The position numbers were made by a program. DNA of 9,104 nt, taken from the IMG/VR virus record IMGVR_UViG_2671180433_000006; one strand, given 5' to 3'. The DNA comes from a virus. Its lineage: Duplodnaviria; Heunggongvirae; Uroviricota; Caudoviricetes. Of the stretch, positions 3,001 to 9,000 are shown in pieces (positions within the stretch are counted from its first letter, which is position 1; every line of letters starts with the position of its first letter).

Positions 3001-6000
3001 ATCAACCAGCTCGCTGACGTTTGGCAGTCCGGCGATAACGGATGCTTCTTCCCGGCACCATGCAACAAACTGCCCGGGAGATGGCAGAAATGGTCGATTC
3101 TGCCGACGGGCTACGCGCATTCCTGCGTTAACCTGTTCCATTGTGGTGATCCCGTTTTCCCGGAAAGCCAGAACCCACTGGCGGCGGATTTCGTTCAGTT
3201 CGTTCTGGTCACGGTTAGCCAGGCTCGCCGGGAAAGTTGCCAGTAACTGGCTGAACACACCGTTGATGATCTGCGCTACCTGCTGTACCTGCGGCTTTTC
3301 GTCGTACTGTTCCGGCATGTTGTTGGCGATCCGACGCATCTGCTCACGGTCAAAATTAACCATCTGTGCGGCGATGTTTTTCATAAATCCACCCCGTAAA
3401 TCCAGTCAGTGTTTGTCAGGTCGAGTTTTGGTTTTCCAGCTGTCACGCCAGCCTGTTGCTTGTTACGGTTGATTTCGAGTTGGGTCCACTTGTCGCGGAG
3501 TTTGGCCGGACTTAGCACGTTACCGGACCAGAAGTTGTCCTGGCATGCCCAGCGGAACAGCACGCACATGTCGCGGTGGTTACGTCCGTCACGTTCACGC
3601 ATCAGGCGGATATCGTTAGCCCACCCTGCAAAATTCGGTTTTCTGGCTGATGGTGCGATGGTCTTCACCATGTCAAACATCCACTCTGCGGCGGTCAGGT
3701 CTTCTGCTGTTCCCCACTTGCTGCCGCTCTGAATTGCAGCATCCGGTTTAACCACAGAAAGATCGTTTTCTGGCTGGTCAGAGGATTCGCCAGAATTCTC
3801 GGACGAATAATCTTTTCTTTTTTCTTTTGTAATAGTGTCTTTTGTGTCCCCCTGTTTTGAGGGATAGCAATCCCCTAATTTGAGGGATGTTTTATCCCTC
3901 GTTTTAGGGGATTTTCCCTCGTTTTGAGGGATGTCCCTCATTTTAGGGGAACCTCCCTCGTTTTGAGGGATGCACCATTCTGAGATGTTTTTATTTGGTC
4001 CAAACATGCCGCCTTGCTGCTTGATAATATTCATTCTGACGAGTTCTAACTTGGCTTCATTGCACCGTTTGACAGGTAACTTTGTAATCTCGCTAAGTTG
4101 AGAATCGGTGATTCTGTCCATTGGTTTATTCCACCCATAGGTTTTACGCAGAATGGCAAGCAGCACTTTAAACTGTCGCTTGGTCAGATCTGCGCCTGAA
4201 TAAGCCTCAATCAGCATATTTGATAGTCTGGCGTAACCATCATCGAGATCTGCCACATTACGCTCCTGTTCGGCAAAGTTACCTCTGCCGAAGTTGAGTA
4301 TTTTTGCTGTATTTGTCATAATGACTCCTGTGGATTGATCCAGTAATTCCCTCAGAATTGCATATCAATTTGCTTAGAGTCCCCGGCGGCCACCGGGGAT
4401 TTTTTCTTTGTGATTTCATCAAGCGCATACTTAAAAGCCCTGCTAATCGGACTGATGTCTGATGCCATTCCGAAAGCACACAAGACCGAAGCAATAAATC
4501 TCCAGTCCGTTCTGCTTATCTTCGATTCATGACAGCCAATCATCTTTGCCAGACCGCGCTGGGTAAGCGTTGACAGGTTGATGAGTAAATCAGTTTCAGC
4601 GCGATCAATTTCTCGCTGTGATAGTTTGCTGTAACTTGTTTGTTCCATTTCTTAAGATTTCCAATAGTGAATAGCTAGTTGAAAGGTATGCGTGGAAACG
4701 CATATGGCCTTAGTTGGTCAGATATATTGGGACTCGCTTTGTCAGCGACGTAGGACGAATGTCCATTGTGAAAATAGCGGTGTTACTTATGCAGCCAGAA
4801 GGTTCTTTTTGCTTATTTCAAGCATTTCGCTTGCTTGATATTTGCCACCAGAAATCTCTTCGATTTTTGATGCGTATTTAGTTTTCCCAAAAAACTCAGT
4901 CTTAGGGAGGAAGCCGTTTTTGAGCCACTTATAGACAGCCCTTTCGCTAACTCCACAAGCCTTCGCAACTTCAGGGATGCCGACACCTTTAATCGGCTCA
5001 TCAAGATTTTGCATAGGAATATCCTTTTTCGTACTTTCAGTACGTATTATGGTTGAACTGAAAGTTTTTGCAAGTGCTTTAGTATCGTACTCATGGTTCA
5101 GAATGAAAAAGTGCGCAAAGAATTCGCCCAGCGGCTAGCGCAAGCCTGTAAAGAAGCTGGTCTTGATGAACATGGTAGGGGAATGGCTATAGCCCGTGCC
5201 CTTTCTCTTTCGTCCAAAGGCGTTAGCAAATGGTTTAATGCTGAGTCTTTACCGCGTCAGGAAAAAATGAATGCGCTTGCGAAATTTCTAAACGTTGATG
5301 TTGTTTGGCTTCAGCACGGCACTTCGTTAAATGGAGCGAATGATGAAGATACTCTTTCATTTGTTGGCAAATTAAAAAAAGGGTTAGTGCGCGTGGTTGG
5401 TGAGGCAATTCTTGGTGTTGATGGTGCCATCGAGATGACCGAAGAGCGCGATGGGTGGCTCAAAATTTATAGCGATGATCCAGATGCCTTTGGTCTTCGT
5501 GTGAAAGGAGACAGCATGTGGCCCAGAATAAAATCAGGAGAATATGTACTCATTGAGCCTAACACCAAAGTATTCCCGGGTGATGAGGTGTTTGTCAGAA
5601 CCGTTGAAGGACACAACATGATTAAGGTTCTTGGCTATGACAGAGATGGAGAATACCAATTTACAAGCATTAACCAGGATCACAGGCCTATAACGTTGCC
5701 TTATCATCAAGTAGCAAAGGTGGAGTATGTAGCTGGTATTCTGAAGCAATCTCGCCATCTGGATGACATCGAGGCAAGGGAGTGGCTGAAAAGTTCGTGA
5801 CTTCATCGTCACATAGCTGGTAACCAGTGGCCTGAAGAGACGTTTGGGTAAGGAGGATAGATGGCGTTCAATGACCTTGAATATCAAGCAGTAAAAAAAG
5901 AAGTTCACCAATTCATTGAAAGCATAAGGCCGCCTGAACATATCCGCAATGAACTGGATATTGTTTATAGCATCAATGACCAAACGATAGATATCGGCGA

Positions 6001-9000
6001 ACAGCGCCCCGTGTGGCAGGGCAATCCAGGTGAAACAAACATCCTGCCATCAGCAAGAATCAAGTACATACGTTCTCTGGATAGATGGAAAATCTATTGG
6101 ATGCGGAAGGATATGAAATGGCATCAGTACAGTACTGAACTTTCGCTGACTGATGCGCTTGAGCTTGTGCGTGCTGACCCGGATTGCTGCTTCTTCGGAT
6201 GAGTGAAGAGACGTTTGGATGATGGATGGTCGCAGAGATGCGGCCTGATTCTAAAATAGGATATAAAAAATGAGAATACTAGGTGTTAGAGCGGCGCCCA
6301 AAGTTACATCTTTTGTTGTATATTGCACTAATGAGTCTGCACTCAAATGTGTTGATGTTATTAAAATACCTTCGACCTTAGACACACCAGAAAAATTAAA
6401 GTATGTGAGAAATAACATCCTCGACATTCTTAATTTATATAATGTTGAATTAGCTGCCATACGCGTTACTGAATCAAACTCTGATAATCTTAGCATTGAC
6501 CGCCTTTATATAGAAGCTGTTATTCAAGAAGCATTTTCAAGCAGTGATGTAAGAAAATATTACACTATTAGAAAATCTGGCATGAAATCATCATTGAACC
6601 TAACAGAGATCGAGTATAAAGAAATATTGAAGTCACACCGCAATATAAATGGAATCGATAATTCTGGTTTTACAGCTGAAACAAATGAAGCTGTTTTGGC
6701 TGCACTATCTGCGGAGGTAAGGGGATGCTAACTCCATACAAAAGAGCTGATGTAGAATTCGAATGGATTAGTGATCTAGAAGAACAGGGTTGTTTTTCAA
6801 AAGTATATCTGGCTCATGACAGACACCTAGCTCATGACTTGGTGATTAAAGAAATAGAAAAAAAAGAAAACACTAACCACGACGACTACTTTAATGAAGC
6901 AAGGCTTCTCTATAAACATGCACATCCAAATATTGTGCAAGTTCAGTATGCTGCTCAATGTGAGAGCAATATCTATATAGCCATGCCATTTTATCATAAT
7001 GGTTCGCTAAACCAATTAATGAAAAAAAATAATCTTACAAGCAGGGAGATAATACGGTATTCCATTCAATTTTTAAGTGGACTTTATCATATACACTCAA
7101 AAGGTCTTATGCATTTTGATATAAAACCTAATAACATTATGATATCAAACAGAAATGAGGCCATGCTATCTGACTTTGGATTATCTCAGTTAGTCAATGA
7201 GGAATCGAGAGCTGCGCCTGAGTTTGGATATCATTTTCATGTGCCACCGGAATATTTTTCTTTATCAACAAATGATTATAATTTCACATATGACATATAT
7301 CAGGCAGGATTAACCATATATAGAATGTGTGTTGGACATGATAATTTTGAAAGAGAAAGATCTGCATTTAGCACGATTGAACAACTCAGAGAGTCGATAA
7401 TTAATGGCTGCTATCCATTAAAAGAGTATCCTCCCCATATACATAAAAAATTAATAACAATAGTGAACAAATGCATTCATGTAGATCCAAATGAAAGATA
7501 TCAATCCGTACTAGATGTACTAAACGATCTCTCAGCTATAAGTGATGGCGTTCTTGACTGGCGTCTACAGATGACGAAACCAACTAACGGCACATGCGAA
7601 TGGCAAAAAAAGTCTGGGGACGCTATACTGTCTATAGTTTTTGACGCAGAAAATTCGTCTACTACTGGTTTTCGTTTATACGATGATGGGCGGAAAAGGC
7701 GTGCTACGAACTTAACAATATCCTCAGGATGTACCCCTACAAAACTGTATAGGTTATTAAAGGATAACTGATCATGAAAAAGCGCGAGGAAGTAAGCAAG
7801 CTGCCTCGCAGACGTGATGCAGCATTAGCGGTTCCCTACAAAAAAGATGAGTTCATAAGCCCTTCTGATGACAAAAAATTTTCAAAGGCGAAAAGTTTTA
7901 CATCTACATCTCTAAAAGATAAATACTTTAAAATCTAGCCCGGCCTCAGCGCCGGGTTTTCTTTGCCTCACGTTCGCCCACCTAAAAAACATAACCAATT
8001 GTATTTATTGATGTAACTCGCTAAACCATGCAGTTATGATCCCTGCCGCATAACCTTCATCAGCCACATTTTCAAAAATAAATTTCCTTATATATCAGAA
8101 TCATACTTCGTAGAGTTAATAAATCACCAAAATTCGTACCAATAGTTCTTGATAATGTCGAACTATTGGTTCATTATTATCATCGTCAGCAGGACGCATT
8201 ACTCACCAGGTCGGTGAATATACAACGATTCGAATATGAATCTACGGCGCTGACAAAGCGCAATAACCAAAGTGAACTTTGGGGTGTGGTGAAGGGTTCA
8301 TGGACGGGAATATGTCGCACGTAAAGCGGCGAGGCCTGCGGGACTATTGCCGAATTGAAGTAGGCCGAAACAGGTCGAAATGGGTCTCCCACCTACCACA
8401 CCACCAAAGTTCATCAGGAGGTCTATATGACACGCAGAACTCAGTTCAAAGGCAATTCACGTTCTCGTCGTCGTGAGCGTTTAAAGGCAAAGGCATTAGC
8501 TAACGGCGTACTGGCCCGCGAAGAAGCAATAAGTTCAGAAGTATTACACCGCCCTACTCTAAGCAGAGCGCAGATTCAGGCTAAAGGTACTCACGAAACG
8601 CCTGAGCGCATAGAAGACGCTAAGCCAATTAAGTTCATGGCACAGGACGTGATCTGGCAACAGAAAGAATACAGACGCAATCTGGAGCGAGCGGCCATTG
8701 TGTACGCGAATGAGTTTGGACATAAGCAACCAGAAACTGGTGTATGTCTTCCAAACGTAGCCATTTACGCGGCAGGCTACCGGAAATCAAAACAACTGAC
8801 GGCGAGGTGACTTGTGTTGGTCGCCAGAAAATGAAATTAGGCAGCAAACCACTTATTTGAGGTGAGATATGACAAAATCATGGAGCGTACCTTTTCCTGA
8901 ATCAGAAACTGAACATGATGGAATGCCTGTTTTCTGGAGATTCCAGGCGACAGTTGAAGAAGATGGGATAAAAATATGAGGTAGCCTGAGTTTAACGGAC

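What the first reader, a model, noticed from the sequence alone, without database searches (positions are those of the whole stretch)
5833..6218. 113-aa ORF bracketed by exact 15-bp direct repeats: cassette-like module between cI and the kinase operon
TGAAGAGACGTTTGG occurs exactly at 5833-5847 and 6204-6218, flanking the 113-aa ORF and its strong Shine-Dalgarno. Such repeats are unexpected by chance at 371-bp spacing and suggest a duplication or recombination junction through which the gene was inserted, or a repeated cis-element (for example an RNA-processing or regulator-binding site) preceding each accessory gene. The protein itself is unrecognised.
Basis: seen in the sequence. Interest (0 to 1): 0.55.

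Follow-up and report, generated by a model that had tools for sequence, protein, structure and literature searches.

The report
Repressor-gene tail repeated around cargo gene
The 15-base repeat is the tail end of the phage lambda-type repressor gene, present once before and once after a small accessory gene (DUF3024), and related prophages show that this gene plus one repeat copy is gained or lost exactly at that sequence, which is a clear example of a known way in which phage genomes are shuffled.

Summary
TGAAGAGACGTTTGG occurs exactly twice (5833-5847, 6204-6218), flanking a 113-aa ORF with a strong Shine-Dalgarno.

The window is a 933W-type Stx-phage immunity region. The 15-mer is the last codons of lambda-type cI (..QWPEETFG*) and is identical in phage lambda itself. 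R1 lies in a non-coding fossil of such a gene end, just after the 933W cI stop. R2 lies one base after the ORF's stop. It is followed by the hairpin that in relatives is the terminator placed directly after cI.

In 123 lambdoid occurrences, 36 unrelated cargo sequences begin right after this sequence. The 371-bp unit [one repeat + ORF] is present or absent exactly at the repeat in three different downstream contexts. One pair is near-isogenic. A second small cassette, and one array of cassettes, are bracketed by the same repeat.

The ORF is not unrecognised. It is Pfam DUF3024 and PADLOC defence candidate PDC-S43, but its function is still unknown.

Best reading: the repeat is a short conserved boundary sequence, through which short-homology recombination moves lysogen-expressed cargo in the known cI-N hotspot. 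A cis-regulatory role is not supported.

This is a new instance of a known kind and of moderate interest.

The parts
5093..5800 (+). 933W-type cI repressor (235 aa, HTH + S24 peptidase). First gene of the lysogen-expressed immunity operon.
   Evidence: ORF. Pfam Peptidase_S24 and HTH_3. Annotated as cI in 933W and relatives at 99.8-100% identity.
5809..5823 (+). Non-coding fossil of another repressor-gene end (TCA CAT AGC TGG TAA = ..SHSW*).
   Evidence: Read. The same sequence is the real end of the cI gene in L006 (..GRVFWSSHSW*). A related fossil (IGKVFWSAHS*) follows cI in lambda. In L007 homology to the window ends right after this TAA.
5824..5851 (+). Non-coding fossil of a lambda-type cI 3' end (CCAG TGG CCT GAA GAG ACG TTT GGG TAA = QWPEETFG*). 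It contains R1.
   Evidence: The same sequence is the coding end of cI in VT2-Sakai L004, L010 and L011, and in lambda NC_001416. In 70 of 135 exact occurrences it ends an ORF of at least 150 aa.
5833..5847 (+). R1, left copy of the 15-bp direct repeat.
5850..5856 (+). Shine-Dalgarno AAGGAGG of the DUF3024 gene. It overlaps the fossil TAA stop.
   Evidence: Read.
5861..6202 (+). DUF3024 gene (113 aa; 933W L0084). Accessory cargo and PADLOC candidate defence gene PDC-S43.
   Evidence: Fifty homologues, all among Enterobacterales, with a conserved C-terminal CFFG. AlphaFold2 model with pLDDT 91, alpha-beta5-alpha.
6204..6218 (+). R2, right copy of the 15-bp direct repeat, starting one base after the DUF3024 stop.
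   Evidence: The left junction GGATGAG|R is the same in all 933W-type cassettes.
6228..6245 (+). Hairpin GGTCGCA-GAGA-TGCGGCC. It is the remnant of the terminator that in relatives directly follows the cI end. Here it has no T-run.
   Evidence: Fold of 6196-6275: -16.8 kcal/mol, z=-2.6. The same hairpin plus T6-7 follows directly after cI-R in L034, L044, L047, L056, L109, L114 and L118, and after the Sakai cassette. L009 carries compensatory changes (GGCTGC..GCAGCC).
6270..6731 (+). 153-aa 'RuvC-like' protein (933W L0083), the next cargo gene. It overlaps stk by 7 nt.
   Evidence: PHROG 3875. It occurs with stk but without DUF3024 in L009.
6725..7771 (+). Stk Ser/Thr/Tyr-type protein kinase.
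   Evidence: Pfam Pkinase E=2e-46. PADLOC mad6 and PD-T4-6 models.
7774..7938 (+). 54-aa ORF, last gene before the operon terminator.
   Evidence: PHROG 4063.
7937..7968 (+). Terminator-like hairpin plus T-rich tail. Probable end of the cI-DUF3024-RuvC-like-stk-orf54 transcript.
   Evidence: There is no terminator-like or promoter-like site on the + strand between cI and this point.

Best explanation
SHOWN: the 15-mer (R) is the 3' terminus of the lambda-type cI repressor gene (..CAG TGG CCT GAA GAG ACG TTT GGN stop = QWPEETFG*). In this 933W-type phage the working cI has a different C-terminus, so R1 sits in a non-coding fossil of an older lambda-type cI end. R2 is a second copy of that same end, on the far side of the DUF3024 gene. 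R2 is followed by the hairpin that in many relatives is the terminator placed immediately after cI.

SHOWN: across lambdoid prophages R marks the point where the repressor gene stops and unrelated cargo begins. The 371-bp unit [R + DUF3024] is present or absent with boundaries exactly at R in three different downstream contexts.

INFERRED: the first R duplication arose from an illegitimate join that placed DUF3024 in front of a truncated cI end. Since then R (15-19 bp) has served as a short conserved boundary sequence. Phage- or host-mediated short-homology recombination between R copies in co-resident phages swaps what lies left and right of the cassette. Unequal R1 x R2 exchange deletes or stacks cassettes.

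INFERRED: DUF3024 has no promoter of its own. It is read from the cI transcript in lysogens, as are rexAB, bstA and stk. It is most likely a lysogen-expressed phage-exclusion or host-modifying protein that acts by binding another protein.
For: R is the end of cI.
- Phage lambda NC_001416 reads ..cagtggccTGAAGAGACGTTTGGctga.
- In 70 of 135 exact occurrences in held loci, R closes an ORF of at least 150 aa followed by a stop. About 40 more occurrences are fossils after other repressor types.

R is a boundary.
- The 123 lambdoid occurrences are followed by 36 distinct sequence clusters that diverge within about 5 nt after R.
- Many downstream clusters combine with two or more upstream repressor types.
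- Homology of the window to other phages ends at or just after R1 (q1-150/154) or R2 (q1-524), or starts at R.

The unit is an indel.
- L098 and L011 have the same cI 3' half (about 90-98% per 50-nt block) and the same downstream 700 nt (98-100%). They differ by the exact 371-nt unit.
- L128 has another cI type, then R, then a flank essentially identical (99-100% per 100 nt) to that of L011's R2.
- L081 and L119 have cI-R-GTGATAGGAAG.., matching L003's R2 flank at 99-100% per 100 nt over 1 kb.
- L009 has a repressor, a degenerate R, the hairpin, RuvC-like and Stk, with no DUF3024.

The unit travels whole.
- It is found in 227 of 5426 complete E. coli genomes, always at 80% coverage or more.

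The pattern recurs independently.
- A 23-aa peptide ORF is bracketed by R copies 87 nt apart in six loci (L070, L113, L118, L127, L132, L134), with at least four different downstream sequences.
- L118 carries an array R-pep1-R'-pep2-R''-terminator.

Operon reading.
- No promoter-like or terminator-like site lies between cI and 7937 on the + strand.
- cI, DUF3024, RuvC-like and stk change together (log2FC -1.2 to -1.4) in Phi24B RNA-seq (PMC10789677).

Cargo at this site.
- It includes RexAB, BstA, PD-Lambda-2, Stk, HicAB, PDC-M63, PDC-M24 and PDC-M04.

Literature.
- The concept of short conserved boundary sequences is cited in PMC3029335.
- The cI-N interval as a moron hotspot is cited in PMC7067206.
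- Red/RecET recombination at short or diverged homology is cited in PMC2327257.
Against: - No recombination event was observed directly. All evidence is comparative.
- 15-19 bp is below the roughly 30 bp quoted as the minimum for efficient RecA or Red recombination (PMC2327257), so events would be rare.
- Some junctions to the right of R2 lie elsewhere, for example inside the hairpin in L011. Illegitimate joins therefore also shape this region.
- No exact empty site with the 933W cI joined directly to RuvC-like was found in 5426 E. coli genomes or in the phage set.
- The SNP pattern around R2 did not locate a crossover.
- The IMG/VR sample was selected by exact R, which inflates its apparent conservation.
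- How R2 first arose is unknown.
- The function of DUF3024 is untested and its fold gave no confident match.
Confidence: 0.65

Rival explanations
1. Passive scars only. Both copies are fossils left by independent illegitimate recombination events at the end of cI. They mark history but play no part in moving the cassette. Boundaries coincide with R only because selection keeps recombinants with an intact repressor gene and tight coupling of the next gene.
For: Other fossil repressor ends are stacked in the same place (SHSW* at 5809-5823; IGKVFWSAHS* after lambda cI). Right-hand junctions are scattered: +5 in L003, inside the hairpin in L011, after the hairpin in the window. Many cargo genes start with a TGATG stop-start overlap on the cI stop, which selection for expression could explain.
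Against: Three independent with/without pairs share exactly the same boundaries at R, with R as the only shared sequence at the joint. The same holds for the peptide cassette in front of at least four different cargos. Independent illegitimate events would not repeatedly hit the same nucleotide.
Confidence: 0.2
2. R is a cis-acting element, either an RNA processing site or a regulator-binding site, that precedes accessory genes and is kept by selection for that role.
For: R is 100% identical in two non-coding positions here, and it precedes two successive cargo genes.
Against: - In most relatives it is coding sequence.
- It is absent before stk and orf54.
- After the same 933W-type cI, R carries an 11-nt internal deletion (L137, L008) or is missing (L007).
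- By my reading, R2 matches at only 10 of 15 positions in the Sakai cassette, whose overall identity is 82%, and it is also degenerate in ST160.
- The R1 region has no significant RNA structure (z=+0.5).
- No Rfam family matches.
Confidence: 0.06
3. The repeats are a target-site duplication, or the attachment sites of a dedicated mobile cassette system (transposon-like or integron-like).
For: Direct repeats flank a single gene. An array R-orf-R-orf-R exists in L118.
Against: - No transposase or integrase lies next to the cassette.
- The cassette has no terminal inverted repeats.
- 15-19 bp is longer than usual target duplications (my own knowledge).
- R has no attC-like foldable symmetry.
- Downstream cargo genes in the window are not separated by R.
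- Distant DUF3024 genes carry no R.
Confidence: 0.04
4. The two 15-mers match by chance.
For: None beyond the short length.
Against: No shuffle out of 200 gave a second copy. Both copies are conserved, with their flanks, in many phages.
Confidence: 0.01

Closest known systems
Short conserved boundary ('linker') sequences at module junctions of lambdoid phages (Susskind & Botstein 1978; Clark et al. 2001, as cited in PMC3029335)
   Same: A short sequence is shared by otherwise unrelated modules exactly at their junction. The segments on either side are reassorted.
   Different: Here the linker is the coding tail, or a fossil, of the repressor gene itself. A cargo gene carries a second copy on its far side, so the cassette is bracketed by direct repeats and can be stacked (L118). 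I did not find this specific site described in the library searched.
Morons (extra genes inserted between neighbouring phage genes; Juhala/Hendrix, my own knowledge; mentioned in PMC7067206)
   Same: A single accessory gene is present in some phages and absent in near-identical relatives, and is expressed from the prophage.
   Different: No promoter of its own was detected. The terminator hairpin lacks its T-run in this window, so the gene is part of the cI operon and not an autonomous unit.
The cI-N accessory/defence hotspot: lambda rexAB, BstA of BTP1, 933W Stk (Degnan et al. 2007 cited in PMC7067206; PMC8585504 listed)
   Same: Same position, same transcription from the repressor promoter in lysogens, and the same turnover of cargo.
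   Different: The function of DUF3024 is untested. It is only a PADLOC candidate (PDC-S43).
Integron gene cassettes
   Same: Promoterless ORFs lie in series downstream of one promoter, each followed by a repeat of a recombination sequence (array in L118).
   Different: There is no integrase, no attC-type structured site, and only one or two cassettes. Exchange is best explained by general short-homology recombination.

Membership tests
Pfam DUF3024 (PF11225) | Match to the family HMM above the gathering score over the full domain | tested here: met
   108.9 bits against a cutoff of 24.9, residues 4-113 on profile positions 2-112 of 112.
PADLOC PDC-S43 (single-gene phage defence candidate) | Match to the PDC-S43 HMM | tested here: met
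   E=5e-42, full length 1-113 against 1-115.
PADLOC PDC-S43 (single-gene phage defence candidate) | Protection against phage infection | not testable with these tools
   No experimental report was found. Support comes only from location among known defence cargo.
Short conserved boundary sequence of lambdoid mosaics | The same short sequence lies at the junction of many otherwise unrelated modules | tested here: met
   36 downstream clusters and several upstream repressor types share R.
Short conserved boundary sequence of lambdoid mosaics | Reassortment of the flanks: the same downstream module with different upstream modules, and the reverse | tested here: met
   Several clusters combine with two or three upstream types. 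L128 and L011 share a downstream flank that is 99-100% identical but have different upstream sequence.
Short conserved boundary sequence of lambdoid mosaics | Crossovers actually occur within the sequence | not testable with these tools
   Needs crosses or deep junction sequencing. The SNP analysis was inconclusive.
Moron | Gene present or absent between genes that are adjacent in relatives | tested here: met
   L098 compared with L011, an exact 371-nt indel.
Moron | Own promoter upstream | tested here: not met
   No sigma-70-like site between 5707 and 7116 on the + strand. A consensus scan is weak evidence.
Moron | Own terminator downstream | tested here: inconclusive
   The hairpin at 6228-6245 is present but has no T-run in the window. 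A full terminator is present in the Sakai-type cassette.
Integron cassette / attC | Adjacent integron integrase and structured attC sites | tested here: not met
   No integrase in the window. R shows no significant fold.
Transposon / IS target-site duplication | Terminal inverted repeats inside the direct repeats, and a transposase | tested here: not met
   No inverted repeat at the cassette ends. The single ORF is DUF3024.
Known RNA family (Rfam) | Covariance-model match at gathering score | tested here: not met
   No matches in the whole window.

The most novel reading that the evidence does not exclude
The last 15-19 nt of lambda-type cI act as a general docking sequence for lysogen-expressed cargo in lambdoid and P22-like prophages. 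Any cassette that has acquired a copy on its far side can be inserted, excised or stacked by short-homology recombination without a dedicated recombinase. This would give integron-like arrays (R-orf-R-orf-R, as in L118) of defence or exclusion genes under the repressor promoter. It would also make R a simple sequence anchor for mining new defence genes.
Probability: 0.3. Interest if true: 0.6.

Novelty: new member of a known kind. Interest (0 to 1): 0.35.

Why it matters
The region is already annotated in 933W and many other Stx phages, and the cI-N interval is a known hotspot for accessory and defence genes. What this analysis adds is a clean, nucleotide-level case for an old and often doubted idea: that short conserved boundary sequences, and not only illegitimate recombination, move phage modules. 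Here the tail of the repressor gene is the shared sequence, and a cargo gene bracketed by two copies is gained or lost exactly there.

There are three practical consequences. First, the 15-mer is a ready anchor for collecting cargo expressed in lysogens: 36 types appeared in a small sample, and several of them are known defence systems. Second, DUF3024 (PDC-S43), present in about 4% of complete E. coli genomes and in the major Stx2a phages, becomes a reasonable candidate for a prophage-encoded exclusion function worth testing alongside Stk. Third, the R1/R2 pair predicts a specific spontaneous deletion that may be detectable by PCR.

Tried and rejected
- **Synthetic empty-site query.** I joined the 933W cI through R1 directly to the sequence after R2 and searched 5426 E. 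coli genomes. No contiguous match was found. All full hits were two pieces that contain DUF3024. The search did reveal L009, L010 and L011.
- **GTDB representative genomes.** The search for related loci with DUF3024 gave only 3 distant loci. They are solitary genes next to transposases or ParE, with no cI and no R. This says nothing about the repeat.
- **RNA element.** There is no Rfam hit. The R1 region folds no better than shuffles (z=+0.5). Only the hairpin after R2 is significant.
- **SNP-based crossover mapping.** Differences between the window and L010, L019 and others cluster in the 5' part of DUF3024 and not at R2, so the result is inconclusive.
- **Idea that the DUF3024 C-terminus (..FFG*) derives from the cI tail (..TFG*).** Rejected, because CFFG is conserved in distant homologues that have no cI context.
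- **Literature.** Searches for L0084 and WPEETFG found nothing. Degnan et al. 2007 is not held. Two searches failed because a term was too short.
- **Chi site near R.** GCTGGTAA at 5816-5823 is not Chi (GCTGGTGG). Read from the sequence and dropped.

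
Full report
**1. What the window is**

The 9.1-kb window is the immunity and early region of a 933W-type Shiga-toxin phage, shown in the reverse of the lambda map orientation. It is 100% identical over 5700-6350 to phages phi345, phi315, Stx2-converting phage 86 and P27, and 99.8% identical to 933W itself.

On the + strand the genes run as follows:

| Feature | Coordinates |
|---|---|
| cI | 5093-5800 |
| 113-aa ORF | 5861-6202 |
| 153-aa 'RuvC-like' protein | 6270-6731 |
| Stk kinase | 6725-7771 |
| 54-aa ORF | 7774-7938 |
| terminator-like hairpin | 7937-7958 |
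| N | 8427-8810 |

**2. The observation**

TGAAGAGACGTTTGG occurs at 5833-5847 and 6204-6218 and nowhere else, even allowing two mismatches. None of 200 shuffles gave a second copy. The identity is exactly 15 nt. The ORF between the copies has a strong Shine-Dalgarno (AAGGAGG, 5850-5856).

The protein is recognised as Pfam DUF3024 (E=2e-31), PHROG 3467 and PADLOC defence candidate PDC-S43 (E=5e-42).

**3. What the 15-mer is**

Read in the frame CCT GAA GAG ACG TTT GGN stop, it encodes ..PEETFG*, the C-terminus of lambda-type cI.
- It is the real coding end of cI in VT2-Sakai (L004) and in E. coli prophages L010 and L011.
- It is the real coding end of cI in phage lambda itself (..cagtggccTGAAGAGACGTTTGGctga).
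- Of 135 exact occurrences in all held sequences, 70 close an ORF of at least 150 aa followed by a stop. About 40 lie in non-coding fossils after other repressor types. Eleven follow DUF3024. About a dozen are unrelated chance hits.

In the window the working cI ends ..KSS* at 5800. It is followed by two stacked fossils..SHSW* (5809-5823) and QWPEETFG* (5824-5851). R1 lies inside the second fossil. Lambda carries the same two kinds of end in the opposite order.

**4. What follows R2**

R2 starts one base after the DUF3024 stop. It is followed by ATGATGGATG and the hairpin GGTCGCA-GAGA-TGCGGCC (6228-6245; z=-2.6).
- In many relatives the same hairpin with a T6-7 run follows directly after cI-R (L034, L044, L047, L056, L109, L114, L118). 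It also closes the Sakai-type DUF3024 cassette.
- L009 has compensatory changes in the stem.

R2 plus the hairpin is therefore a copy of the 'end of cI plus terminator' module. In the window its T-run has been replaced by the leader of the RuvC-like gene.

**5. R is a mosaic boundary**

- Among 123 lambdoid occurrences, the sequence after R (plus the stop codon) falls into 36 unrelated clusters.
- Many clusters are found behind two or three different repressor ends.
- Homology of the window to other phages ends a few bases after R1 (mEp506, ST2-8624, many Stx1a phages), ends a few bases after R2 (the LC6160xx Stx2a phages), or begins at R (ST160, Sakai, OkiPb01678).

The cargo behind R includes:
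- lambda rexAB
- BstA (E=1e-123), PD-Lambda-2 and the candidates PDC-M63, PDC-M24 and PDC-M04
- HicAB
- Stk, in this window

This is the known cI-N accessory hotspot (Degnan et al. 2007, as cited in PMC7067206).

**6. The cassette is gained or lost exactly at R**

- L098 and L011 share the 3' half of cI (about 90-98% per 50-nt block) and 700 nt downstream (98-100%). They differ by precisely 371 nt, which is one R plus DUF3024.
- L128 has a different cI type, then R, then a sequence 99-100% identical per 100 nt to L011's R2 flank.
- L081 and L119 have cI-R-GTGATAGGAAG.., matching the R2 flank of L003 at 99-100% per 100 nt over 1 kb.
- L009 has a repressor, a degenerate R, the hairpin, RuvC-like and Stk, but no DUF3024. 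It is the analogue of an empty site for the window.
- L001, L002 and L012 have the same 933W cI and a single R followed by other cargo.

In each case R is the only sequence shared at the joint. The R-DUF3024-R unit occurs in 227 of 5426 complete E. coli genomes, always whole.

**7. The pattern recurs**

A 23-aa hydrophobic ORF (MREYLIVGVVTLLSVVAIVLMVA*) is bracketed by R copies 87 nt apart in six loci, in front of at least four different cargos. L118 carries an array R-pep1-R'-pep2-R''-terminator. The peptide ORFs use the first TGA of R as their stop.

In ST160 both copies around DUF3024 carry the same variant (TGATGAGA..). This fits exchange with local repressor ends.

**8. Against a cis-element**

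- R is absent before stk and orf54.
- After the same 933W-type cI, R has an 11-nt internal deletion (L137, L008) or is missing (L007).
- By my reading, R2 in the Sakai cassette matches at 10 of 15 positions, against 82% identity for the cassette overall.
- The R1 region has no significant fold, and no Rfam family matches.

**9. The gene**

DUF3024 homologues found here are 58-98% identical, all from Enterobacterales, with conserved Trp/Arg positions and a C-terminal CFFG.
- The AlphaFold2 model is confident (pLDDT 91) and shows a helix, a five-stranded sheet and a second helix.
- Distant homologues are solitary genes in variable regions.
- The Sakai-type copy looks disrupted: it gives two tblastn pieces and is not annotated.
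- No promoter-like site precedes the gene.
- cI, DUF3024, RuvC-like and stk move together in published RNA-seq (PMC10789677).

I infer a lysogen-expressed small protein-binding factor, probably an exclusion or defence function. This is not shown.

**10. Mechanism and rivals**

Best reading (confidence 0.65): R is a short conserved boundary sequence, and short-homology recombination between R copies reassorts cargo and adds or removes the cassette. The first duplication probably came from an illegitimate join inside a cI tail.

Rivals:
- Passive scars only, 0.2. Scattered right-hand junctions favour this. Three identical boundary pairs argue against it.
- A cis-element, 0.06.
- A dedicated mobile system, 0.04.
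- Chance, 0.01.

The concept is known (PMC3029335). Red/RecET recombination at short or diverged homology is documented, although about 30 bp is the usual minimum (PMC2327257).

**11. Verdict**

The repeat is real and the cassette reading is right. It is explained as a repressor-gene tail used as a module boundary. This is a new, unusually clean instance of a known kind, with interest 0.35.

Noticed in passing
window 5809-5851; L136 (lambda) 1650-1745: Stacked fossils of two different repressor-gene ends (..SHSW* then ..QWPEETFG*) lie after the 933W cI stop. Lambda has the same two kinds of end in the reverse order (real QWPEETFG* followed by fossil IGKVFWSAHS*). This suggests serial replacement of immunity genes that leaves the old 3' ends behind.
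   Followed up: partly
L118 3990-4260; also L070, L113, L127, L132, L134: Tiny hydrophobic ORFs (23 aa MREYLIVGVV.. and 32 aa MRIGIAFPVIVF..) are each bracketed by R-like copies and form an array R-pep1-R'-pep2-R''-terminator. The 32-aa peptide also appears after R in mEp506 (L002) and, degenerate, after DUF3024 in ST160 (L005).
   Followed up: partly
window 4735-4753 and 8242-8260: A 19-nt inverted pair, 95% complementary (CGCTTTGTCAGCGACGTAG / CTACGGCGCTGACAAAGCG), lies downstream of cro and upstream of N. The position and internal hairpin fit nutR/nutL boxB sites (pair I3).
   Followed up: no
window 3849-3972: Iteron-like direct and inverted repeats (CCCTCGTTTTGAGGGAT and variants, about 20-nt period) lie inside the O-like replication gene. 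This is presumably the origin (families D1, D2 and pair I6).
   Followed up: no
window 6270-7771; L009 2572-4073: The 153-aa 'RuvC-like' gene overlaps stk by 7 nt, and the pair travels together without DUF3024 in E. coli 2012C-4502. Stk matches the PADLOC mad6 and PD-T4-6 kinase models, while the 153-aa partner has no PADLOC model. This may be a two-gene unit.
   Followed up: no
L004 (VT2-Sakai) 3037-3380: The Sakai-type DUF3024 copy (82% nt identity) appears to be a pseudogene. It gives two tblastn pieces, has an in-frame stop and is not annotated, yet it keeps its terminator.
   Followed up: partly
L005 (Salmonella phage ST160) 2960-3400: Both repeat copies around DUF3024 carry the same variant (GCCTGATGAGA..). 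The left side has an extra partial copy (TGTTTGG) just before the Shine-Dalgarno. This suggests concerted change or repeated exchange with local P22-type repressor ends.
   Followed up: no
L137 / L008, about 30 nt after the cI stop: A common E. coli prophage class (roughly a quarter of the rows sampled) has R with an 11-nt internal deletion (CCAGT|ACGTTTGG), followed by a 299-aa hypothetical gene.
   Followed up: partly
loci L016-L135, first genes after R: At least 36 cargo types follow the repressor tail. About half of those tested have no PADLOC match, for example the 145+123-aa pair in L041, the 285-aa protein in L081, the 333-aa protein in L037 and the 355-aa protein in L048. This is a compact list of untested lysogen-expressed candidates.
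   Followed up: partly
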